A DNA stretch of 64,000 nucleotides from Minisyncoccota bacterium (GTDB taxonomy: Bacteria; Patescibacteriota; Minisyncoccia; Phycocordibacterales; Phycocordibacteraceae): assembly GCA_036405415.1 (NCBI GenBank), contig DASWXP010000002.1, forward strand, positions 427,678 to 491,677, in the 5' to 3' direction. Below the pieces are notes generated by a model that worked only from the letters and a program-made list of their open reading frames with translations, was not told the origin of the DNA and searched no databases. How positions within the stretch are numbered: position 1 is the first letter of the stretch; each line of letters starts with the position of its first letter. Shown in pieces: positions 14,722 through 46,358 of this stretch. Both the position numbers and the translations under genes were made by a program.

Positions 14722-14906
14722 GATGGCTTTTCTTACAAAACGGCCTCGCTTCTGCGGGGCTGTTTTGTTGAAAAATATTGATTTCACCTTATCCCCTTAT
14801 AAAATCAACCCCTATTGCGTAAAATATGGCGTTTTCTATACTTTTCCCGTAGCCCTCTCATAGGGCTTGTGAGCCCTAAGAGGATTAACCCCTAAAAGAA
14901 CGACAC

Positions 14907-16440: not shown

Positions 16441-17655
16441 CTAGAGCGCGTCTACCGCCTCTTCGGCGAGGTCCATAGCCTCATCTGCGAAGTCGATAGC
16501 GTCGTCGTAGTCCTCGTCGTCGAATGCGTCCTCAGCGTCTGCGAGTGCATCCTCTGCCTCATCGAGAAGATCGTACGCCTCGTCGGTATCCTCACCGTCG
16601 TCATCAGCCTCATCGATCTCGTCACGAGCCTCGTCGATCGCGTCCTGCGCGTCCTCGATCGCATCTTCTGCATCAGACTCGTCATCGCCGGAAGAGCTTC
16701 CGGTGCCGATCTCGTCGAGGGCCTCGTCGATGAGATCCATCGCCTCGTCTGCGAGCTCGATTGCGTCGTTGTAGTCCTTATCGTCGAATGCGTCCTCGGC
16801 ATCGTTAAGGAGGTCAGCAGCCTCATCAAGGAGGTCCTCAGCCTCGTCGGTGTCCTCGCCGTCGTCGTAAGCTTCGTCTACCTCGTCCCACGCATCGTCG
16901 AGCGCACGATCGGTCTTCTTGATCTTCTCCTCGGCTTCGTCCTCGTCACCGCCATCATTGCCGTCGATCTCGTCTGCGGCGTCATCGATGGACTCCTGCG
17001 CGTCCTGCGCGAGGCTCTCTGCCTCTGAGTAATCCTCCTCCACGAACGCGTATAGTGCGTCCTTGAGAAGATTGTCTGCCTCGGCGAGATACGTCTTGGA
17101 CTTCCCTACGTTATCGCCGTCGTCCTTCGCGTCCTCATAGTCGTCCATCGTGTCCTCGTACGAATCGCGCGCGTCGAGGATCGCGTTGCGCGCCTCTCGC
17201 TGCGCAGAGCTCACTACCGGAGTCGTTGGAAGTGGTGTCGGTGCTGGCGTAGGCGTTGGCGTCGGGGTTGGCTTTGGCGCTGAAGTGCCTCCTGACGTGA
17301 GCACGATGTACTTCGCGCGCGAAAGCGGGCCCCAGGTGCCGGTAGCGGAAATACCGTTTGCGGCCTGCCACTTCGACACTGCGGCTGCGGTCTTCGCCTG
17401 GAACTGATTGGTCTCCTGGCCAGGAGACCCCACGCCGGACGCTGAGATGGTGTAGCCGGCGCCGTTAAGGTAGCGCTGCAAGCAGCGCACCTCTTCGCTG
17501 ACCGTTCCGATCTCGAGGTTCTTGGTGCTAAAGACGCAGGTGGCAGCGCGTGCCGAAGACGGCATGAGCGCAGCTCCTGCAAGGAATACAGCGAGCGCGA
17601 TGAGCGCAGCAGCGTTCCTCTGATGGGCAGTGATGTACATAGACGAAAGGTTCAT
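16441..17655 (-). CDS. secreted peptidoglycan-binding-domain protein with a PT-linker and highly acidic repeats
   Basis: Signal peptide, then a PG_binding_1-like segment (RCLQRYLNGAGY...WQAANGI...TG), a (PT)n linker and about 250 aa of D/E-rich sequence with internal repeats. Confidence 0.7.
   Translation of the reverse strand: MNLSSMYITAHQRNAAALIALAVFLAGAALMPSSARAATCVFSTKNLEIGTVSEEVRCLQRYLNGAGYTISASGVGSPGQETNQFQAKTAAAVSKWQAANGISATGTWGPLSRAKYIVLTSGGTSAPKPTPTPTPTPAPTPLPTTPVVSSAQREARNAILDARDSYEDTMDDYEDAKDDGDNVGKSKTYLAEADNLLKDALYAFVEEDYSEAESLAQDAQESIDDAADEIDGNDGGDEDEAEEKIKKTDRALDDAWDEVDEAYDDGEDTDEAEDLLDEAADLLNDAEDAFDDKDYNDAIELADEAMDLIDEALDEIGTGSSSGDDESDAEDAIEDAQDAIDEARDEIDEADDDGEDTDEAYDLLDEAEDALADAEDAFDDEDYDDAIDFADEAMDLAEEAVDAL
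16444..16629 (-). repeat. intragenic repeat unit 2 (about 60 aa acidic repeat)
   Basis: DEIDEADDDGEDTDEAYDLLDEAEDALADAEDAFDDEDYDDAIDFADEAMDL is about 65-70% identical to the unit at 16708-16893. Confidence 0.6.
16708..16893 (-). repeat. intragenic repeat unit 1
   Basis: DEVDEAYDDGEDTDEAEDLLDEAADLLNDAEDAFDDKDYNDAIELADEAMDL. Confidence 0.6.
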
Positions 17656-17769
17656 TGATAACGGATTGACCGTGCAAGACGCCGGTTCGTACTACTTAAG
17701 ATAGCACGCACGCATGTGTCTTATATGAAAGAACGACGCATGTGCTGCGTCGTTCTTTCATTGCTTCGG

Positions 17770-17840
17770 TGCGGGCGGGGAGAATCGAACTCCCAACTCA
17801 ACTTTGGAAGAGTCGTGTTTTACCACTAAACTACGCCCGC
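17770..17840 (-). tRNA. tRNA-Gly (anticodon TCC)
   Basis: Cloverleaf read by hand: acceptor GCGGGCG, T-loop TTCGATT, anticodon loop CTTCCAA. No encoded CCA. Confidence 0.8.
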
Positions 17841-17868
17841 TTCGGGTTCGAGCATATCACATCTCTTG

Positions 17869-17939
17869 TCGGGCCGCCGAGAATCGAACTCGGTCTATCT
17901 GCTCCCAAAGCAGACGTACTACCGGTATACTACGGCCCG
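17869..17939 (-). tRNA. tRNA-Pro (anticodon TGG)
   Basis: Acceptor CGGGCCG/CGGCCCG, anticodon loop TTTGGGA, T-loop TTCGATT. Confidence 0.8.
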
Positions 17940-18074
17940 ATGCGGACATCCTAGCAGGAATATGAATATTCGCACGTTGTGCCCGAGTGTCGTTTAGGAG
18001 ACTTTGAGGAAATCCTTTTCATTGCTGGGTTTTTTAGGGACGTTCATCGATCCATCATAAATGTCCTCTGTCCT

Positions 18075-18114
18075 TTATCCCCATTATCCCCCTACTTATC
18101 CACTGTTATCCCCT
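18075..18114 (+). promoter_or_regulatory. tandem array of four DnaA-box-like 9-mers (TTATCCCCA, TTATCCCCC, TTATCCACT, TTATCCCCT)
   Basis: Direct head-to-tail repeats with 9-12 bp periodicity between two tRNA genes. The consensus DnaA box is TTATCCACA. Confidence 0.45.
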
Positions 18115-18158
18115 AACACAAAAGACAGCCTTTCGGGCTGTCTTTTGTGTTTCTCGAG

Positions 18159-18230
18159 TGCGGCCAGGGAGAATCGAACTCCCGACTCGTCCTTGGCAAG
18201 GACGCGTTTTACCACTAAACCATGGCCGCT
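18159..18230 (-). tRNA. tRNA-Gly (anticodon GCC)
   Basis: Acceptor GCGGCCA, anticodon loop TTGCCAA, T-loop TTCGATT. Confidence 0.8.
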
Positions 18231-18273
18231 TCGGGAGGCATCATAGCACAGGTATGCCAGAGAACTCCAGTCT

Positions 18274-19455
18274 CTAGCGTGCGATGTCCCACGGCGGGAA
18301 GGATATATCCGAGAGGTCCCCTTCCCTGCCGAGTAGCGCTTCCTTCGGGAGCGCCCGCAGATTGAAGTGACTGGCCATAGAGAATCCGTATGCGCCAGCG
18401 TTCCTGATAGCAAGAAGCTCTCCGATCTCCGGGAGCAGCATGGAGCGGTCTATCGCAAGCAAGTCCCCTGATTCGCATATGTTCCCCGCAACCGTTATGT
18501 GGGCCTTCTTGCCGCTCCTGCGACCTACTATATCTATCGGATGATACGCGCCGTACATCGCATGACGAATGAGATGGTTGAAGCCGGTGTTCACGCCCAC
18601 GAAGGTGCGCTTCGCTGTTTCCTTAACGTCTGTTACGGATGTTACGAGCGTGCCACTCTCCGCAACGATGAAACGTCCAGGCTCCATAGCGAACACAATC
18701 TCTCTGCCCTTCTGGTCCTTAAAATCGCGCAACAGGGCGCGCATGTTCTTTCCGAGTGTCTTGAGATCAAGTTCCCATTCCTCCGGGCGGTACGGGATCC
18801 CGAGCCCGCCACCGAAATCTACGTGCGCTACATCAGGAAACTTCCCCGCAGTTCCAAGAAGCGCACGTACCGCTTTGAGGAACGTGTCAGCATCAAGGAC
18901 ATTCGAACCTATGTGCTGCTGGATGCCGGTTATGCGCAGCCCGTACGAAACAGCTATCTCTTTGGCTTTCGGTATGTCCTTGAGCGTGATGCCGAACTTG
19001 CTGTTAGGTCCGCCCGTCATGACATGCGCATGATGCCCGGCACCGATGCCCTGATTGATCCTGAGTGAGACATTCTTTCCGAGGCCGTTCCTGCCCCATA
19101 TTTCGAGCTGCGTGAGTGAATCTAGGTTTATACGGGCTCCTGAGCCTGCAGCTTTCACGAGCTCCGCTTCTGAAAGGCTGGAACAAGTGAAGCTCAGGGT
19201 CCTTGCCGGGAATCCTGCTCTCTTAGCAGCACTGAGTTCTCCCAGACTCACTGCCTCTGCCCCGATTCCCTCTTCCCTGATTATCCTCAGGACCTGGGGG
19301 TTCGCATTGGCCTTAACGGCATAATGAAACTCTATTTCGGGGAAATGACGCTTTAGCTTCTGGCACTGTGCCCGAATGACGCTTTCTTCATAGACGTACA
19401 CCGGAGTCCCGAACATGTCGGCCGCACGCACGAAGTGCGAATCGTCTCGTTTCAT
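18274..19455 (-). CDS. lysA: diaminopimelate decarboxylase (PLP-dependent, Orn/DAP/Arg decarboxylase family)
   Basis: FHYAVKAN PLP-lysine motif, GGG region and a CESGD C-terminal motif. Start set at MKRDDSHF because the longer ORF would run through the tRNA-Arg gene. Confidence 0.85.
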   Translation of the reverse strand: MKRDDSHFVRAADMFGTPVYVYEESVIRAQCQKLKRHFPEIEFHYAVKANANPQVLRIIREEGIGAEAVSLGELSAAKRAGFPARTLSFTCSSLSEAELVKAAGSGARINLDSLTQLEIWGRNGLGKNVSLRINQGIGAGHHAHVMTGGPNSKFGITLKDIPKAKEIAVSYGLRITGIQQHIGSNVLDADTFLKAVRALLGTAGKFPDVAHVDFGGGLGIPYRPEEWELDLKTLGKNMRALLRDFKDQKGREIVFAMEPGRFIVAESGTLVTSVTDVKETAKRTFVGVNTGFNHLIRHAMYGAYHPIDIVGRRSGKKAHITVAGNICESGDLLAIDRSMLLPEIGELLAIRNAGAYGFSMASHFNLRALPKEALLGREGDLSDISFPPWDIAR

Positions 19456-19457
19456 AC

Positions 19458-19532
19458 TGGTGCCTCCGCCAGGACTCGAACCTGGAACGACAGTTCCGAA
19501 GACTGTTGTGATATCCATTTCACCACAGAGGC
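19458..19532 (-). tRNA. tRNA-Arg (anticodon TCG) with genomically encoded 3' CCA
   Basis: Acceptor GCCTCTG/CGGAGGC, anticodon loop CTTCGGA, T-loop TTCGAGT, terminal ACCA. Confidence 0.8.
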
Positions 19533-19592
19533 CTGCCCCTGATAGTACGCGACGACTAGGAGAAAGGCCACTCACGTACTAGTATTTCGGAT

Positions 19593-21056
19593 ATGAAATA
19601 CGCGGTTCCCCTCGAGGTTTCCCGTGTAACCGCTTCCCTGCGCGATGCCGGATATGAGGCATATCTCGTGGGCGGTTGCGTACGCGATCTCCTTCTCAAC
19701 CGCACCCCAAAGGACTGGGACGTTACCACGAATGCGAAGCCTGAGCACATCCAGGCGGTCTTCCCTGAATCCTTCTACGAGAACGACTTCGGGACCGTTG
19801 GCGTAAAGACCGGGAGCGAAGACCCCAAGCTCGCGATCATTGAAGTAACTCCGTACCGCACAGAGTCTGGATATTCGGACAAGCGCCGTCCGGACGCAGT
19901 TGCCTTTGGGGATAACCTCGAGGAGGATCTTGCCCGTCGTGACTTCACGATAAATGCCATTGCCCTTGATGATTCTAAAGGACAGCTTGTTGACCCTTAT
20001 AAAGGACAAAAGGACATAGAATCGAAGGTTCTGCGTACCGTGGGTTCCCCTACCGAGCGGTTTGAGGAGGATGCACTGCGTCTTATGCGCGCGATTCGTC
20101 TCGTTGCCGAGCTCCATTTCGCGCTTGATACGGACACGGCAGCAGCCATCCAGGAAAAGGGCTCTAATCTGGGACACATTTCACGTGAAAGAGTCCGCGA
20201 CGAGTTCGTCCGGATCCTCAATTCCTCGCAGCCGATGATGGCGCTCGTCCTATGCCAGCAGCTCGGAATCCTTACCTACATTGCTCCAGATCTCACTCGA
20301 GGTGTAGGCATAGAGCAGAATCAGGCCCATAGCTATGATGTTTTTGGGCACCTCATGCGTTCCCTTCAGCACGCTGCTGACAAGGAATGGAGCTTTGATA
20401 TACGCCTTGCGGCGGTATTCCATGATGTTTCCAAACCTGAAACTCGCCGCTGGTCTGACGAGAAGCGGGACTGGACGTTCCATGGCCATGAGGTTGTAGG
20501 CGCTCGGGTAACCAAAAAAGCCTTGGAAAACCTGCGTTTTTCACGTGAAACTATAGAAAAGGTTACTAAACTGGTCCGCTGGCACATGTTCTTCTCCGAC
20601 CCAGAGCAGATTACCCTTTCGGCGGTTCGTCGCATGATCCGGAACGTTGGAGAGGAAAATATCTGGGATCTCCTGAATCTCCGCATCTGCGACCGCATCG
20701 GCACCGGACGCCCTAAGGAGCAGCCGTTCCGCTTCCGCAAGTACAAGGCCATGGTTGAGGAGGCGCTCAGAGATCCAATCTCTGTAGGAATGCTCAAGAC
20801 TGACGGAAATCGCATTATGGAGAAGTTCCACGTGCAACCGGGTCCCAAGATTGGCTTTGCCCTGCACGCCCTCCTTGAAGAGGTTCTTGAGGATCCTAAG
20901 AAGAATACTGAGGAATATCTGGATTCCCGCACTGAAGAGCTACTTGGGCTTTCAGAGCAGGAACTTAAAGCCCTGGGAGAATCCGGAAAGAAGCGAAGGG
21001 AGGTCGAAGAGGAGAGGGAAATACGAGAAATCCTCGAAAGGCACCATGTTTGCTAG
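19593..21056 (+). CDS. cca: CCA-adding enzyme / tRNA nucleotidyltransferase with HD domain
   Basis: PolyA_pol head domain (GGCVRDLLL, DWDV) and an HD domain (FHDVSKP). Confidence 0.85.
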   Translation: MKYAVPLEVSRVTASLRDAGYEAYLVGGCVRDLLLNRTPKDWDVTTNAKPEHIQAVFPESFYENDFGTVGVKTGSEDPKLAIIEVTPYRTESGYSDKRRPDAVAFGDNLEEDLARRDFTINAIALDDSKGQLVDPYKGQKDIESKVLRTVGSPTERFEEDALRLMRAIRLVAELHFALDTDTAAAIQEKGSNLGHISRERVRDEFVRILNSSQPMMALVLCQQLGILTYIAPDLTRGVGIEQNQAHSYDVFGHLMRSLQHAADKEWSFDIRLAAVFHDVSKPETRRWSDEKRDWTFHGHEVVGARVTKKALENLRFSRETIEKVTKLVRWHMFFSDPEQITLSAVRRMIRNVGEENIWDLLNLRICDRIGTGRPKEQPFRFRKYKAMVEEALRDPISVGMLKTDGNRIMEKFHVQPGPKIGFALHALLEEVLEDPKKNTEEYLDSRTEELLGLSEQELKALGESGKKRREVEEEREIREILERHHVC

Positions 21057-21532
21057 AAATTTTCACGTGGAACACCGAAATATCTAGTATTTAAGGCGTT
21101 CTACTCTCCAAACGCATTGTTTCATGTGAAAACAGAAAGGCCGCAGGAAGCGGCCTCTGTAATGTCTGATTCTACCGAGCGGCGAGCAAGAAATGGGGTT
21201 AGGGGCTTTGGAATGAGGCCCGCCAATAGAGATGGTTGAATCTGACAGAATGAACTGATGATTGTGCTTTCACGTGGAACGGGACGCGAGCCGGACCCAG
21301 TTTAGTGTGAGGGAGATACGCTCCGAAGTTCGTTGGACAGCTGCTAGCTACACGTGATTTGCACCTGATAGGGCACAAAGAGCGCGCAAAGAACATTCGC
21401 CTCCCGAGGGAAGGCATACGACTCTCACGAGCGTTACCGACCCCTCAGGTCCTTATAGATAGTACCGCTCTATAGGACATAGTAAAGGACAACTTTGTGG
21501 ATTAGGTGGATAACTTTGTCTTTTATTGTCCT

Positions 21533-22327
21533 TTAAAGCGTAATGGACACGGGGCAGTGGTCAGATCCGAGAATGTCCGGATGAATTTCGGCTTTCTTGA
21601 TCTTCTTGGAAAGCTTTTTTGAAACGAACACGTAGTCGATGCGCCAGCCGACATTCCGCTCACGAGCCTTGGCAAAATGGCTCCACCACGTGTAATGCCC
21701 GTTTCCTTCTGTGAATAGACGGAACGTGTCTACAAACCCTGCCGCAACGATGTTATCGATTCCTTCGCGCTCCTCATCGGTAAAGCCTTTAACGCCTACG
21801 TTCTGCTTGGGGCGGGCAAGATCGTCCGGAGTATGCGCAACGTTCAAATCGCCGCAGAAAATAACGGCTTTTTCCTCCTCAAGCCGCTTCATGTATTCAA
21901 GAAATGCAGGGTCCCAGTGCCTATACCGAAGCGGGAGACGAGAGAGGTCGTCCTTGGCGTTCGGGGTATAGACCGAGACTACGTAGAAATCGCCCATATC
22001 CGCCGCTATTATGCGTCCCTCCTCGTTTGGGTCTCCGTATCCGTCGTCTGCCAAGCCGTGCTTCTTAGCAATATCTTCCGGCATGCCGAAGAGCACGTTC
22101 TTTGGAACCTTCTTTGAGAAGATAGCGGTTCCGCTGTATCCCTTCTTGTTCTTCGCTGAATACCAGTATTCTTCGTATCCCTTGAGATCAACAGGGGACT
22201 GGTGCTGTTCGGCCTTGGTTTCCTGAAGACAGATGATGTCCGGTTTCAATTCTTCGAGGAAGGGAACGAAAAGACCCTTCTTATGAACTGCACGGATGCC
22301 GTTAACGTTCCAGGAGACGATTTTCAT
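21533..22327 (-). CDS. xthA: exodeoxyribonuclease III (AP endonuclease)
   Basis: SWNVNG and the catalytic His motif SDHCP at the C-terminus. Confidence 0.9.
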   Translation of the reverse strand: MKIVSWNVNGIRAVHKKGLFVPFLEELKPDIICLQETKAEQHQSPVDLKGYEEYWYSAKNKKGYSGTAIFSKKVPKNVLFGMPEDIAKKHGLADDGYGDPNEEGRIIAADMGDFYVVSVYTPNAKDDLSRLPLRYRHWDPAFLEYMKRLEEEKAVIFCGDLNVAHTPDDLARPKQNVGVKGFTDEEREGIDNIVAAGFVDTFRLFTEGNGHYTWWSHFAKARERNVGWRIDYVFVSKKLSKKIKKAEIHPDILGSDHCPVSITL

Positions 22328-44675: not shown

Positions 44676-44764
44676 GTGCACAGGATATTAACAGGTTGAC
44701 GCGGGACTCGCAAGGAAATGCCTCGTCCGGACCTTTCTCGCGGAATTTCCCCCGGCCGGTATAC

Positions 44765-44773
44765 TTATCCACA
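44765..44773 (+). promoter_or_regulatory. perfect DnaA box TTATCCACA immediately upstream of the dnaA start codon
   Basis: Exact consensus 4 nt before the ATG at 44777. Confidence 0.6.
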
Positions 44774-44776
44774 CCT

Positions 44777-46129
44777 ATGAACCGGCATGATCCTCGAGAG
44801 CTCTGGGAGTACGTCCTTACGCAGGTAGAGTTGTCGATTTCGGCCGCGAATTTCAACACCTGGTTCCGCGACAGCACCATCGTGAAGATAGAAGAGGGGA
44901 TCGTGTACATCGGGGTCCCGAGCCAGTTCTTCAAGGACTGGTTCCTGAAGAAGTTCCATACGCTCCTTTTGAAGATCGTACGCGGGGTGTCGCACGAATA
45001 CCGGAATATCGAGTACATGATCGTTAAGAGCGACCGCCAGAAGCCGCCCAAGGAGTCCCGCCGCACGCCGCAACCAACCGTTGAGATGCCGCTCGACGAG
45101 TTCTATATAAATAAGAGCGACGGCCTGAATCCTCGCTATACCTTCGATACGTTCGTGGTGGGGGCCTTCAACGAGCTCGCGCATACGGCGGCCCAGGCAG
45201 CGCTTAAGCGCCCAGGCATCATGTATAACCCTTTGTTTATCTACGGAGAGACCGGGAGAGGGAAGACGCACCTCATCCAGGCCATTGGCAACCAGTTCAA
45301 GAAGCTCTACCCGGGCCGGAAAGTCTTCTACCTGACCGCGGAGACCTTCGCGCAGGACTATACGAATTCTATCCAGAACGGCACGACGAACCGCTTCAAG
45401 GATAAGTACCGCCAGTACGACCTCCTGATCATGGACGATATCCAGTTCTTCTCGAAGAAGGAGAAGACTCAGGAAGAGCTCTTTCACCTCTTCAATGCCC
45501 TCTATGACAACAACAAGCAGATCCTGTTCTCGTCCGATAGGGCGCCGGCAGCCATCCCAGATATCGCAGACCGTCTCCGCGGACGCTTCGCTGCCGGCAT
45601 GTCTATCGATATCGGCGAGCCGGATACGGAGAGCCGTATGGAAATAGTACGCAAGAAGGCCGCGTCGCACGGCGTATACCTCTCGAATGAGGTGGTAGAA
45701 CACATCGCAACCTCGATTTCAGGTTCTATCCGCGAACTTGAGGGCGTAATCAACAGTGTTGTCTGCCACACCCAAGTTAAAGGAGTGCCCCCGGACCTCG
45801 CTGAGGTACGTCACTCCCTGCGATCCTTCGCTCGGCCGCAGAAGACAGTTTCGGTTAAGCACGTGGTCGCGAAAGTCGCGGAGTTCTACGGTATAGACGA
45901 GGAAAGCATCTACGAGAAGACCCGCAGGAGGGAAGTAGTGCGCCCGCGCCAGGTCATTATGTACATCCTTCGCGAGGATTTCTCGGTCTCGTATCCGACC
46001 ATCGGCTCGAAGCTCGGCGGCCGCGACCATACTACGGTCATCCACTCGTGCGAGAAGGTGAAGCGCGAGGTACTCGAGGACGCAGAACTCGCCAAAGAGA
46101 TCCAGGACATTAGGACCTTGCTTGTATAA
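44777..46129 (+). CDS. dnaA: chromosomal replication initiator protein DnaA
   Basis: AAA+ Walker A GETGRGKTHL, Walker B LLIMDDIQF, and a C-terminal DNA-binding domain. Start chosen at MNRHDPRELW. Confidence 0.95.
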   Translation: MNRHDPRELWEYVLTQVELSISAANFNTWFRDSTIVKIEEGIVYIGVPSQFFKDWFLKKFHTLLLKIVRGVSHEYRNIEYMIVKSDRQKPPKESRRTPQPTVEMPLDEFYINKSDGLNPRYTFDTFVVGAFNELAHTAAQAALKRPGIMYNPLFIYGETGRGKTHLIQAIGNQFKKLYPGRKVFYLTAETFAQDYTNSIQNGTTNRFKDKYRQYDLLIMDDIQFFSKKEKTQEELFHLFNALYDNNKQILFSSDRAPAAIPDIADRLRGRFAAGMSIDIGEPDTESRMEIVRKKAASHGVYLSNEVVEHIATSISGSIRELEGVINSVVCHTQVKGVPPDLAEVRHSLRSFARPQKTVSVKHVVAKVAEFYGIDEESIYEKTRRREVVRPRQVIMYILREDFSVSYPTIGSKLGGRDHTTVIHSCEKVKREVLEDAELAKEIQDIRTLLV

Positions 46130-46130
46130 G

Positions 46131-46358
46131 TGTGGGGAAAACCCATGGATAACGCAGGTAAAAGGATGGGGACCAGGGCTGAAGTACGGTGTGGAAAGCG
46201 GATGCGTGTGTGGACAGGAAACGCACTATCCACGGACGGTCTCGCCGAGACGAGGTATTTTCCCACAGCCTGTGCGGCAGGGTTCCAGGGAAGGGGCAAG
46301 GGTTTACGGGCTTTAAGGGGTTGTCCCCGGTATCAACAGCCCTAATAATAGAAGCATT
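46131..46358. promoter_or_regulatory. candidate oriC: DnaA-box cluster plus an AT-rich stretch between dnaA and dnaN
   Basis: At least six 9-mers within 1-2 mismatches of TTATCCACA on both strands. An AT-rich 30 bp lies just before the dnaN start. Confidence 0.55.

What the first reader, a model, noticed from the sequence alone, without database searches (positions are those of the whole stretch)
18075..18114. Four tandem DnaA-box-like repeats inside a tRNA gene cluster, 26 kb from oriC
TTATCCCCA, TTATCCCCC, TTATCCACT and TTATCCCCT occur head-to-tail with 9-12 bp spacing between tRNA-Pro and tRNA-Gly(GCC). They are followed by a hairpin (GACAGCCtttcGGGCTGTC) and T-tract. Each is 1-2 mismatches from the DnaA consensus found perfectly at the dnaA promoter (44765-44773). 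The same-orientation array is reminiscent of DnaA-titration or regulatory loci (datA/DARS-like in E. coli, DnaA-box clusters in Bacillus), but away from the origin. It could instead be the binding site of an unrelated regulator of the tRNA operon.
Basis: partly seen in the sequence, partly recalled or inferred. Interest (0 to 1): 0.55.

Follow-up and report, generated by a model that had tools for sequence, protein, structure and literature searches.

The report
Conserved DnaA-box cluster beside tRNA-Gly
The four repeats are real and are one organism's version of a deeply conserved cluster of binding-site-like sequences for the replication initiator DnaA, sitting just after a glycine tRNA gene in many ultra-small "Paceibacterota" bacteria, much as the E. 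coli DnaA-control locus datA sits after its glycine tRNA genes.

Summary
TTATCCCCA, TTATCCCCC, TTATCCACT and TTATCCCCT lie at 18075-18114 on the + strand. TTATCCMC occurs 8 times in the window against 1.6 expected. None of 1000 simulated windows had even two copies within 40 bp.

The nearby tRNA genes are on the minus strand. The array therefore follows the tRNA-Gly(GCC) terminator and lies 136-175 nt upstream of tRNA-Pro(TGG).

It is the local form of a non-coding block that is conserved between tRNA-Gly(GCC) and tRNA-Pro(TGG) or yraN. I found the block in 35 distinct Candidatus Paceibacterota (CPR) sequences.

At orthologous positions relatives carry canonical boxes such as TGTGGATAA and TGTGGACAA. 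Only positions 1, 3, 5 and 7 of TGTGGATAA vary. These are positions 9, 7, 5 and 3 of TTATCCACA.

The A/C swap that gives "TCCCC" also occurs in the conserved dnaA-dnaN origin boxes of this clade.

I read the array as a DnaA-box cluster outside oriC. It lies 26.7 kb from dnaA, and 26.9 kb in a relative. This window is the only member with four good boxes.

Function is untested. It could titrate or inactivate DnaA as datA does, or control the neighbouring promoter. There is no IHF site, DnaA-trio or DUE at the array.

A second motif, AAAGGACA, is fused to box 1 and remains unexplained.

The parts
18075..18083 (+). Box 1, TTATCCCCA (TGGGGATAA on the transcribed-sense minus strand). It is the box nearest the downstream promoter and is fused to the AAAGGACA motif.
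   Evidence: It is TGGGGATAA in three (L131, L134, L135) and AGGGGATAA in the fourth (L127) of the four relatives found by synteny. It was also used as part of the pattern that retrieved 35 family members.
18084..18092 (+). Box 2, TTATCCCCC. This is a window-specific upgrade of a normally weak site.
   Evidence: The relatives L127 and L131 have TGTTAACAC and TGTTAGTAG at this position. Across the family the mean match to TGTGGATAA is 5.7 of 9.
18096..18104 (+). Box 3, TTATCCACT. It is orthologous to the best-conserved box of the family.
   Evidence: At offset -21 from box 1 the mean match to TGTGGATAA is 7.46 of 9, and 33 of 35 sequences match at 7 or more positions. Positions G2, G4, A6, A8 and A9 are nearly invariant.
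18106..18114 (+). Box 4, TTATCCCCT, a facultative distal box.
   Evidence: It is kept in L131 and degenerate in L127. It matches at 7 or more of 9 positions in 8 of 35 family members.
18115..18151 (-). Intrinsic terminator of tRNA-Gly(GCC). It is a perfect palindrome with 16-nt arms and has A- and T-tracts on both sides.
   Evidence: I2. One search gives -26.9 kcal/mol and z = -6.6. A hairpin of different sequence sits at the same place in L134 and L135.
18158..18229 (-). tRNA-Gly(GCC), the upstream neighbour of the block in nearly all family members.
18060..18077 (-). TAAAGGACAGAGGACAtt, a double GGACA / AAAGGACA motif fused to box 1. Its binder is unknown.
   Evidence: The 8-mer recurs only at three syntenic places in 325 kb of family DNA.
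18000..18059 (-). Conserved distal part of the block (GTCCCTAAAAAACC...ATTTCCTCAAAGTC). It is homologous to the region just upstream of the yraN (UPF0102) start codon in relatives.
   Evidence: Family alignment, consensus gtcc...aaA.A...t.tttctaAa..g.C. The yraN ORF is seen in L134.
17948..17956 (-). Extended -10-like TGCTAGGAT, 8 nt upstream of tRNA-Pro. This promoter assignment is inferred.
   Evidence: It is invariant in window, L127 and L131. Similar TGn -10 elements precede the other two tRNAs.
17868..17939 (-). tRNA-Pro(TGG), the downstream neighbour of the block.
17768..17840 (-). tRNA-Gly(TCC), followed by the terminator at 17725-17761.
   Evidence: I1.
21496..21513 (-). Related site: tandem boxes TTATCCACC and TAATCCACA in the cca-exoIII spacer. 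They are flanked by inverted TAAAGGACA motifs.
   Evidence: They are conserved in L127, L132, L134 and L135.
14780..14797 (+). Related site: invariant GATTTCACCTTATCCCC upstream of the hup (HU) promoter.
44765..44773 (+). Perfect DnaA box overlapping the TATACT -10 and the start of dnaA.
46130..46358 (+). dnaA-dnaN spacer, the probable oriC. It contains TCCCC-type boxes and a BUS-like TTGTCCCCG-GTATCAACA-GCCC-TAATAATAGAAG.
   Evidence: The cumulative G-C minimum is at 43 kb.

Best explanation
The array is a cluster of DnaA boxes outside the replication origin. It is the local, four-box version of a non-coding block that Candidatus Paceibacterota keep between tRNA-Gly(GCC) and the next transcription unit, which is yraN and/or tRNA-Pro(TGG).

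Inferred mechanism: DnaA binds the one to two better boxes. In relatives these are box 3 (TGTGGAYAA) and box 1 (TGGGGATAA). DnaA then fills the weaker neighbouring boxes cooperatively and head-to-tail, because all boxes point the same way and are 9-12 bp apart.

The complex sits about 27 kb from oriC, about 4% of a ~620-kb genome, so it is duplicated soon after initiation. There it can do either or both of two things:
(a) hold or inactivate initiator molecules, as datA and the Bacillus DnaA-box clusters do;
(b) couple DnaA occupancy to transcription across the boundary between the tRNA-Gly(GCC) unit and the yraN/tRNA-Pro unit, acting as a roadblock, repressor or activator.

Shown: the sequence features, their conservation, and their likeness to this clade's origin boxes. 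Inferred: DnaA binding and both functional outcomes.
For: (1) The cluster is far beyond chance.

(2) It is conserved.
- Syntenic relatives with LysA 90%, 83% and 64-65% identical keep box 1, box 3 and the following GGACA motif, while the surrounding spacer diverges or gains a gene.
- A pattern scan of metagenomes found 46 loci, of which about 35 are family members.
- Nearly all of these lie between tRNA-Gly(GCC) and tRNA-Pro(TGG).

(3) The box 3 register matches TGTGGATAA at 7.46 of 9 positions on average, against a background of about 2.3, and 33 of 35 sequences match at 7 or more. Variation is confined to positions 1, 3, 5 and 7 of TGTGGATAA, i.e. 9, 7, 5 and 3 of TTATCCACA. Positions 3 and 5 are the ones the E. 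coli consensus TTAWnCACA/TTATnCACA allows to vary.

(4) The T/G (A/C) swap that creates TCCCC boxes also occurs at orthologous boxes of the dnaA-dnaN spacer in four Paceibacterota genomes. That spacer also holds a conserved TGGGGA[AT]A and a BUS-like module, TTGTCCCCG-CTATCAACA-CCCC-TAATAATAG.

(5) In a scan of 185,579 species genomes, same-orientation triplets of TTATCC[AC]C occur in at least 120 loci, against about 1 expected. Twenty of these mix TTATCCCC with TTATCCAC, and 25 lie next to dnaA or dnaN.

(6) This organism's DnaA domain IV aligns with the E. coli domain solved on a DnaA box (1J1V) and keeps RPRQ and GGRDHTTV(I/L)H. A perfect box overlaps the dnaA promoter.

(7) Seven of the eight exact TTATCCMC sites in the window are intergenic, although about 91% of the window is coding. 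Three of the other sites are themselves conserved.

(8) The distance to dnaA is conserved: 26.7 kb here and 26.9 kb in DGYM01000001.1.

(9) There is a precedent. E. coli datA is a same-orientation DnaA-box cluster immediately downstream of the tRNA-Gly(GCC) operon glyVXY.
Against: - Three of the four boxes carry C at position 7, which the E. coli consensus does not allow. Because the DNA-contacting residues look canonical, these should be lower-affinity sites.
- No binding data exist for any CPR DnaA.
- There is no IHF consensus in or near the block.
- Read in the direction of tRNA transcription, the boxes have the opposite orientation to those of datA.
- Box 1 is fused to a second conserved motif, AAAGGACA, whose distribution points to another factor.
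- The block lies directly upstream of a promoter-like region, as an ordinary operator would.
- In the metagenome set, the invariance of box 1 and GGACA follows from the search pattern. Only the four relatives found by synteny test it independently.
Confidence: 0.55

Rival explanations
1. The repeats are operator sites for a different, unidentified sequence-specific DNA-binding protein, for example a winged-helix or OmpR-type regulator that binds direct repeats. This protein controls the yraN/tRNA-Pro promoter and perhaps hup. The resemblance to DnaA boxes is coincidental.
For: - Direct repeats at a period of about 10 bp just upstream of a promoter-like region are typical of such regulators.
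- A conserved single TTATCCCC sits at about -52 to -60 of the hup promoter.
- The fused AAAGGACA motif, with its three-locus distribution, suggests that an additional factor is present.
- C at position 7 departs from the E. coli DnaA consensus.
Against: - Orthologous sites are perfect or near-perfect canonical DnaA boxes, and variation falls at DnaA-tolerated positions.
- The same variants are conserved in the dnaA-dnaN origin region.
- No regulator gene is conserved next to the block.
- Genomes of about 0.6 Mb have few regulators.
Confidence: 0.2
2. The conserved sequence is mainly a promoter and leader. Box 3 and box 1 would double as -35-like (TGGATA) and -10-like (GATAAA) hexamers 17 bp apart. 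AAAGGACA/GAGGACA would be Shine-Dalgarno-like sequences in front of a mini-ORF (ATGATGGATCGATGA here). On this view the repeats are an RNA-polymerase and ribosome signal rather than a DnaA platform.
For: - The 21-bp spacing between box 3 and box 1 is fixed.
- SD-like AGGA followed 5-9 nt later by ATG or GTG and a very short ORF can be read in many members (my reading of the sequences).
- The sense RNAs of both the block and cca would carry AAAGGACA.
Against: - The hexamers are poor, 4 of 6 each, and the -10 lacks the final T. The consensus scan finds no promoter there.
- The position that would be the first T of the -35 hexamer TGGATA is G in 11 of 35 sequences.
- The mini-ORFs are not conserved in length or sequence.
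- This reading does not explain boxes 2 and 4, or the likeness to origin boxes.
Confidence: 0.1
3. The block is the real oriC or one half of a bipartite origin, possibly together with the DnaA boxes and parS-like sites 3.4 kb away in the cca-exoIII spacer.
For: - Two conserved DnaA-box clusters and three conserved parS-like palindromes lie within 3.5 kb.
- GC skew in the 64-kb window is noisy. Gene-wise third-position skew does not show a clean mirror pattern left of dnaA.
Against: - The cumulative G-C minimum is at 43 kb, next to dnaA.
- The dnaA-dnaN spacer carries a conserved box-box-GC-trio (BUS-like) module (criteria).
- At the array the TTATCC boxes point into the tRNA-Gly terminator and gene. 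No DnaA-trio run or AT-rich unwinding element follows them.
- No consistent skew switch is seen at the block in seven loci.
Confidence: 0.08
4. The four copies are a neutral local duplication or slippage product with no function of their own.
For: - Box 2 is unique to this genome and box 4 is lost in L127, so copy number is evolutionarily labile.
- Pure tandem TTATCCCC microsatellites exist elsewhere (L069, L100, L033).
Against: - Boxes 1 and 3 and their 21-bp spacing are kept across relatives whose LysA is only about 65% identical, and across 35 distinct sequences.
- The repeats are not a perfect tandem unit.
Confidence: 0.03

Closest known systems
E. coli datA (DnaA-ATP hydrolysis / titration locus)
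   Same: - It is a cluster of DnaA boxes outside oriC, all in one direction, with high- and low-affinity boxes mixed.
- It lies in an intergenic region immediately downstream of tRNA-Gly(GCC) genes. In E. coli the first box is 19 nt and the second 86 nt after glyY. Here the first box is 44 nt after tRNA-Gly(GCC).
- It is on the origin-proximal part of the chromosome.
- Read-through from the tRNA promoter is a known input at datA.
   Different: - There is no IHF-binding consensus here, whereas datA has TAACCTATTGATA between boxes 2 and 3.
- The boxes here are packed within 40 bp at 9-12 bp spacing. In datA boxes 7, 2 and 3 are spread over about 240 bp.
- Orientation relative to tRNA transcription is opposite.
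- A strong terminator lies between the tRNA gene and the boxes.
- Three of the four boxes are the TCCCC variant.
- Stimulation of ATP hydrolysis is untested.
Bacillus subtilis DnaA-box clusters (DBCs; e.g. sda, yydA, ywlC, gcp-ydiF)
   Same: They are intergenic clusters of DnaA boxes outside oriC. They lie mostly near the origin, are conserved among relatives, and are next to genes whose transcription DnaA modulates. Local box density and affinity are the defining properties.
   Different: The cluster here is much smaller, with 2-4 boxes. Its neighbours are different (tRNA genes, yraN). There is no ChIP evidence, and the phylum is unrelated.
E. coli DARS1/DARS2 (DnaA-reactivating sequences)
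   Same: They are non-coding DnaA-box clusters outside oriC that regulate the initiator.
   Different: From my own knowledge, the DARS core needs oppositely oriented boxes. All four boxes here point the same way. No IHF or Fis sites were found.
oriC DnaA-oligomerisation region / basal unwinding system (BUS)
   Same: Closely spaced, same-orientation boxes of graded quality are the arrangement that builds DnaA oligomers at origins. The box variants match those of this clade's dnaA-dnaN spacer.
   Different: No DnaA-trios and no AT-rich unwinding element adjoin the array. The BUS-like module is at dnaA-dnaN instead, and the skew minimum is at dnaA.
DnaA-regulated promoters (dnaA autoregulation; sda, ywlC, yydA in B. 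subtilis)
   Same: The boxes are placed within about 100 bp upstream of, or overlapping, a promoter region. This genome's own dnaA has a box over its -10 and start, and hup has one at about -55.
   Different: The promoter downstream of the array is not defined. In this genome the yraN ORF that follows the block in most relatives is missing, yet the block is retained.

Membership tests
DnaA box (9-mer recognised by DnaA domain IV) | 9-mer within 1-2 mismatches of TTATCCACA | tested here: met
   The four boxes have 1, 2, 1 and 2 mismatches.
DnaA box (9-mer recognised by DnaA domain IV) | Conformity with the stringent consensus TTATnCACA / TTAWnCACA (A at position 7) | tested here: not met
   Three of the four boxes have C at position 7. 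In this clade A and C interchange at that position, both at orthologous block sites (24 T / 11 G on the complementary strand) and at origin boxes.
DnaA box (9-mer recognised by DnaA domain IV) | Same motif class present in the organism's own origin / dnaA region | tested here: met
   TTATCCACA lies at the dnaA promoter. TGGGGA[AT]A and TTGTCCCC[GA] are conserved in the dnaA-dnaN spacers of four genomes.
DnaA box (9-mer recognised by DnaA domain IV) | Bound by DnaA | not testable with these tools
   This needs EMSA, footprinting or ChIP.
datA-type locus (DDAH) | Several DnaA boxes with the same directionality | tested here: met
datA-type locus (DDAH) | A single IHF-binding site between essential boxes | tested here: not met
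   No TAAnnnnTTGATW, even with one mismatch, lies in 17940-18160. E. coli datA has one.
datA-type locus (DDAH) | Stimulates hydrolysis of DnaA-bound ATP, and its deletion causes untimely initiation | not testable with these tools
   This needs biochemical or genetic assays.
Non-oriC DnaA-box cluster (Bacillus DBC type) | Intergenic, with a high local density of boxes and at least one high-affinity box | tested here: met
   There are four boxes in 40 bp against a background of 0.26 boxes with at most 1 mismatch per kb. Box 3 is perfect in some relatives. In this window the best boxes have 1 mismatch.
Non-oriC DnaA-box cluster (Bacillus DBC type) | Conserved at the same locus among related genomes | tested here: met
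Non-oriC DnaA-box cluster (Bacillus DBC type) | Stable DnaA occupancy in vivo | not testable with these tools
   This needs ChIP or ChAP.
DARS | Core with oppositely oriented DnaA boxes (from my own knowledge) | tested here: not met
   All four boxes are on the same strand.
oriC / BUS | DnaA box(es) followed within 16 bp or less by at least 3 DnaA-trios and an AT-rich unwinding element | tested here: not met
   Downstream of the TTATCC boxes lie the terminator palindrome and the tRNA gene, with no nTn/nAn trio run. The module is present at dnaA-dnaN instead.
oriC / BUS | Coincides with the GC-skew switch | tested here: inconclusive
   The cumulative minimum is at 43 kb, not 18 kb. However, the skew left of dnaA is noisy, and only 64 kb are available.
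Rfam RNA families | Match to a curated covariance model | tested here: not met
   Only tRNAs were found in 17600-21700 at E <= 5.

The most novel reading that the evidence does not exclude
The array may be one arm of a composite chromosome-control locus that has not been described and is conserved across Paceibacterota. Within about 3.5 kb this locus combines two DnaA-box clusters, three parS-like centromere sites and a possible 330-380-nt structured RNA. It also contains a new 8-mer, AAAGGACA. That 8-mer is kept at nucleotide level inside the cca coding sequence, in different reading frames in two sub-groups.

Such a locus could couple initiator availability, chromosome segregation and tRNA/CCA supply in ultra-small cells. 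It could even be the true origin, separate from dnaA.
Probability: 0.15. Interest if true: 0.8.

Novelty: new member of a known kind. Interest (0 to 1): 0.55.

Why it matters
How replication initiation is controlled in Candidate Phyla Radiation bacteria is essentially unknown. A full-text search found no paper that mentions both DnaA boxes and Patescibacteria.

The conserved, origin-proximal DnaA-box cluster gives a concrete and testable handle: a 40-60-bp DNA fragment and one highly conserved protein. DnaA is 80-96% identical across more than 100 clusters.

If DnaA binds, several things follow:
- Initiator-sequestering or initiator-sensing loci outside oriC would not be a speciality of E. coli and Bacillus.
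- The C-at-position-7 box would be a functional variant.
- Placement right after a tRNA-Gly(GCC) gene would have arisen independently of E. coli datA, hinting at a general link between tRNA transcription and initiator control.

If DnaA does not bind, the block still defines a strongly selected cis-element in genomes that have very few regulators.

Tried and rejected
- A LysA-based scan of species genomes found no confirmed relative. Relatives were obtained instead through protein homologues and exact-protein look-ups.
- Known RNA family: none found at either the gathering or the E-value threshold.
- Plus-strand small RNA (C-rich repeats plus the shared terminator): rejected. Many family members have no hairpin between the boxes and tRNA-Gly, or have the tRNA inverted.
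- GGACA...GTCC as a conserved hairpin: not supported in the window (DNA fold z = -0.35). In several relatives the 'loop' holds two further DnaA boxes.
- Sigma-70 consensus promoter or terminator scans around the array and in a relative returned nothing. The promoter assignments (TGCTAGGAT and others) are my reading only.
- IHF site: absent.
- oriC at the array: disfavoured. My attempt to separate replication skew from transcription skew with third-codon positions was inconclusive.
- A general link between such arrays and tRNA genes across bacteria: not found. Only 2 of 120 arrays have a tRNA within 600 bp. One of them (Geomonas oryzae, L096) mimics the geometry, probably by coincidence.
- A literature search for TTATCCCCA returned only unrelated primer sequences.
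- The TTATCCCCA inside cca (19907-19915) encodes the conserved FGDN peptide, so it is not counted as a site.
Full report
**Observation**

On the + strand they are TTATCCCCA at 18075, TTATCCCCC at 18084, TTATCCACT at 18096 and TTATCCCCT at 18106. They have 1, 2, 1 and 2 mismatches to TTATCCACA.

The 8-mer TTATCCMC occurs eight times in the window against 1.6 expected, and no shuffle out of 100 reached eight. In 1000 simulated 64-kb windows, none had even two same-strand copies within 40 bp. The array is identical in contigs assembled independently from other sequencing runs of the same population.

**Local anatomy**

All four tRNA genes of the cluster are on the minus strand. Read in the direction of transcription, the order is:
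- tRNA-Arg(TCG), 19458-19532;
- lysA, about 18274-19455;
- tRNA-Gly(GCC), 18158-18229;
- a perfect 16-nt-arm palindrome with flanking A- and T-tracts, 18115-18151 (-26.9 kcal/mol, z = -6.6);
- the array, which on this strand reads AGGGGATAA-c-AGTGGATAA-gta-GGGGGATAA-TGGGGATAA;
- about 135 nt of spacer;
- tRNA-Pro(TGG), 17868-17939;
- tRNA-Gly(TCC), 17768-17840;
- a second terminator, 17725-17761.

The hairpin is therefore the terminator of tRNA-Gly(GCC). The array lies 136-175 nt upstream of the mature 5' end of tRNA-Pro.

**Organism**

The LysA protein is 100% identical to a protein named 'MAG TPA: diaminopimelate decarboxylase [Candidatus Paceibacterota bacterium]', which lies on a 622-kb contig. 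The gene content fits a CPR/Patescibacteria genome: rny, hup, mgsA, cca, xth and xerC.

**Close relatives**

Two contigs have the same gene order, with LysA 90% (L127) and 83% (L131) identical. I aligned them across the whole lysA to 404-aa-gene spacer.
- Box 1 is kept in L131 and is AGGGGATAA in L127; box 3 is kept in all three sequences, with fixed 21-bp spacing.
- Box 4 is kept in L131 and decayed in L127.
- Box 2 is a good box only in the window. The others have TGTTAACAC and TGTTAGTAG.

**Distant relatives**

Two more syntenic loci have LysA only 64-65% identical (L134 = Parcubacteria bacterium C7867-004, and L135). Both still show, right after the tRNA-Gly(GCC) terminator, TGGGGACAA-acc-TGTTAACAC-TGGGGATAA-AGGACAtAGGACA or a close variant. 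The rest of the spacer is unrelated, or contains an inserted UPF0102/yraN gene.

**The family**

I scanned the metagenome collection with the core TGGGGATAAARGACA-N1-3-GGACA. It returned 46 loci, of which about 11 are plainly unrelated chance hits. The remaining 35 distinct sequences share one layout:
- tRNA-Gly(GCC), usually followed by a hairpin;
- an optional box 4;
- box 3;
- 3 nt;
- box 2;
- box 1, fused to AGGACAnnGGACA;
- a variable segment ending in GTCC;
- a conserved A/T-rich stretch (...AAATGAGCCnTnTTTCTAAAAG..);
- then either the start codon of yraN followed by tRNA-Pro(TGG), or tRNA-Pro directly.

The block stays between the two tRNA genes even where one of them is inverted.

The invariance of box 1 and GGACA in this set is built into the search pattern. 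The other positions are free. At the box 3 register the mean match to TGTGGATAA is 7.46 of 9, against a background of about 2.3, and 33 of 35 sequences match at 7 or more positions. G2, G4, A6, A8 and A9 are nearly invariant. Variation is limited to position 1 (T25/A7), position 3 (T24/G11), position 5 (G24/T6/C5) and position 7 (T18/C12/A4). In TTATCCACA numbering these are positions 9, 7, 5 and 3.

Box 2 averages 5.7 of 9. Box 4 is good in 8 of 35 sequences. The window is the only member with four boxes at 7 or more of 9. Thirteen members have three and nineteen have two.

**Are these DnaA boxes?**

Several lines agree.
- *Box 3 in relatives.* In several relatives box 3 is the perfect TGTGGATAA, or the high-GC variant TGTGGACAA.
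- *Positions that vary.* The variable positions include the two (3 and 5) that the published E. coli consensus leaves free.
- *Position 7.* The extra variable position 7 (A/C) also varies at the origin of this clade. I aligned the dnaA-dnaN spacers of the window and of three other Paceibacterota genomes.
  - They share a TGGGGA[AT]A directly after the dnaA stop codon.
  - They share TTGTCCCC[GA] boxes. The window has CTATCCACG at one orthologous place.
  - Immediately before dnaN they share TTGTCCCCG-CTATCAACA-CCCC-TAATAATAG.
  - This last element has the box-box-GC-trio arrangement described for the basal unwinding system.
- *Initiator protein.* The organism's DnaA domain IV aligns with the E. 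coli domain crystallised on a DnaA box. It keeps the RPRQ and GGRDHTTV(I/L)H segments. From my own knowledge, these carry the base contacts.
- *Arrays in other genomes.* Same-orientation triplets of TTATCC[AC]C are common. Twenty-five of the 120 lie next to dnaA or dnaN, and twenty mix TTATCCCC with TTATCCAC.
- *Location of sites in the window.* Seven of the eight exact TTATCCMC sites are intergenic, although about 91% of the window is coding. Besides the array they are:
  - the dnaA promoter box;
  - a conserved GATTTCACCTTATCCCC about 55 nt upstream of the hup transcription start inferred from TTGCGT-16-TATACT;
  - a conserved tandem pair in the cca-exoIII spacer.
  - The eighth site encodes the FGDN peptide of the CCA enzyme.

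**Is it the origin?**

Probably not.
- The cumulative G-C minimum of the window is at 43 kb, beside dnaA.
- The BUS-like module is at dnaA-dnaN.
- At the array the TTATCC boxes point into the terminator and the tRNA gene, without DnaA-trios or an AT-rich element.
- The block-to-dnaA distance is conserved: 26.7 kb here and 26.9 kb in DGYM01000001.1, on the same side of dnaA.

There is a caveat. The skew left of dnaA is noisy, and a gene-wise third-position analysis did not give a clean mirror image. I therefore leave about 8% for an origin-related role.

**Mechanism (inferred)**

DnaA would occupy the better boxes and fill the weaker neighbours cooperatively and head-to-tail. Two outcomes fit the position.
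1. *Sequestration or inactivation of the initiator.* The locus is replicated soon after initiation, as with datA and the Bacillus clusters.
2. *Control of transcription at the boundary between two units.* This could be a roadblock to read-through from tRNA-Gly(GCC), or repression or activation of the promoter-like region downstream. In most relatives that region drives yraN and tRNA-Pro.

I cannot separate the two outcomes by computation.

**Comparison with datA**

In E. coli K-12 the first datA boxes lie 19 nt (ATATCCACA) and 86 nt (TTATCCACA) after glyY, the last of three tRNA-Gly(GCC) genes. An IHF site, TAACCTATTGATA, lies further on. Read-through tRNA transcription regulates that locus.

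The Paceibacterota block shares three features with datA:
- a tRNA-Gly(GCC) gene as neighbour;
- boxes in a single orientation;
- a location outside the origin.

It differs in four ways:
- it has no IHF consensus;
- the box orientation is opposite relative to the tRNA gene;
- the spacing is much tighter;
- a strong terminator intervenes.

It fails the DARS criterion of opposed boxes. I therefore file it as a new member of the general kind 'DnaA-box cluster outside oriC', not as a datA homologue.

**Unexplained**

The 8-mer AAAGGACA/TGTCCTTT occurs 146 times in 325 kb of family DNA. Almost all copies are at three syntenic places:
- fused to box 1;
- three copies inside the cca ORF;
- an inverted pair around the DnaA boxes of the cca-exoIII spacer.

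Inside cca the DNA motif is retained although two sub-groups encode it in different frames (YKGQKD against GQKDIKDK). Its Lys and Gly codons never vary synonymously in 17 sequences. This indicates selection on the nucleotide sequence. The binder is unknown, and the motif is absent from the dnaA region.

**Verdict**

The DnaA-box interpretation is supported by comparative evidence, but function is untested. My confidence that this is a DnaA-binding cluster is about 0.55. My confidence that it is a selected cis-element of some kind is above 0.9.

Noticed in passing
window 21057-21532 (also L127 2924-3399, L134 1599-2105, L135 1928-2400): A 477-bp spacer between the convergent cca and exoIII genes is conserved down to relatives with 65% LysA identity. 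Its features are:
- three parS-like palindromes (21060-21075, 21119-21135, 21268-21282; core GTTCCACGTGAAA);
- a ~330-nt GC-rich core with a long predicted hairpin and 8 pairs showing compensatory change;
- a terminator-like hairpin oriented for the minus strand.
There is no Rfam match. It is a candidate unannotated RNA, a centromere region, or both.
   Followed up: partly
window 19976-20016 (+), 18060-18077 (-), 21483-21535; family loci: The 8-mer AAAGGACA is confined to three syntenic places in 325 kb of Paceibacterota DNA. Inside cca it is kept at nucleotide level in different reading frames in two sub-groups. In the window, 13 of 20 near-matches to TAAAGGACA fall in 17988-21549.
   Followed up: partly
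window 21496-21513 (-): Tandem DnaA boxes TTATCCACC and TAATCCACA, 9 bp apart, are conserved in relatives (TTATACACA and CTATCCACA in L134). They are flanked by the inverted repeat TAAAGGACAA...TTGTCCTTTA and lie just upstream of a TATAAG -10-like element of the spacer.
   Followed up: partly
window 14780-14842 (+): An invariant GATTTCACCTTATCCCC lies upstream of a conserved TTGCGT-16-TATACT promoter for hup (HU). It is conserved in L127 and L135. It may be a single DnaA-type box at about -55.
   Followed up: partly
window 46130-46358: The dnaA-dnaN spacer has eight relaxed DnaA boxes. It also has a conserved box-box-GC-trio module (TTGTCCCCG-GTATCAACA-GCCC-TAATAATAGAAG) that abuts the dnaN start codon. 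The module is shared by four Paceibacterota genomes, so this spacer is the likely oriC.
   Followed up: partly
window 44760-44779: The perfect DnaA box overlaps a TATACT -10-like hexamer and ends 4 nt before the dnaA ATG. This suggests a leaderless or near-leaderless, autoregulated dnaA. The box is degenerate in L182, where the sequence is TATAATACGCCCACGATG.
   Followed up: partly
window 17841-17861, 17940-17956, 18230-18250: Each of the three tRNA genes is preceded by its own extended -10-like element (TGTGATATGCT, TGCTAGGAT, TGTGCTATGAT) and a short leader. None of the tRNA genes encodes the 3' CCA, and the cca gene lies in the same cluster.
   Followed up: no
proteins P0121-P0240 vs P0002-P0120: DnaA is unusually conserved in this clade. 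It is 80-96% identical over more than 100 clusters, and 83% identical to strain C7867-004. LysA from the same genomes is only about 64-66% identical.
   Followed up: no
L007-L126 (species genomes): Same-orientation triplets of TTATCC[AC]C occur in at least 120 genomes of many phyla. Only 25 have dnaA or dnaN within the 8-kb locus. Some are pure microsatellites (L069 has 7 copies of TTATCCCC, L044 has 10 copies of GGTTATCCACA). Several Paenibacillus species share one conserved array.
   Followed up: partly
L096 3846-3871 (Geomonas oryzae): Three TTATCCCCT repeats lie 243 bp upstream of a minus-strand tRNA-Pro(TGG). This is the same geometry as in the window, in an unrelated phylum, and is probably coincidence.
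   Followed up: no
window 16441-17655 (-): A 404-aa protein has a signal-like N-terminus and a peptidoglycan-binding-like segment. It also has a long, extremely acidic D/E/A-rich repeat region. No Pfam hit is on record for it.
   Followed up: no
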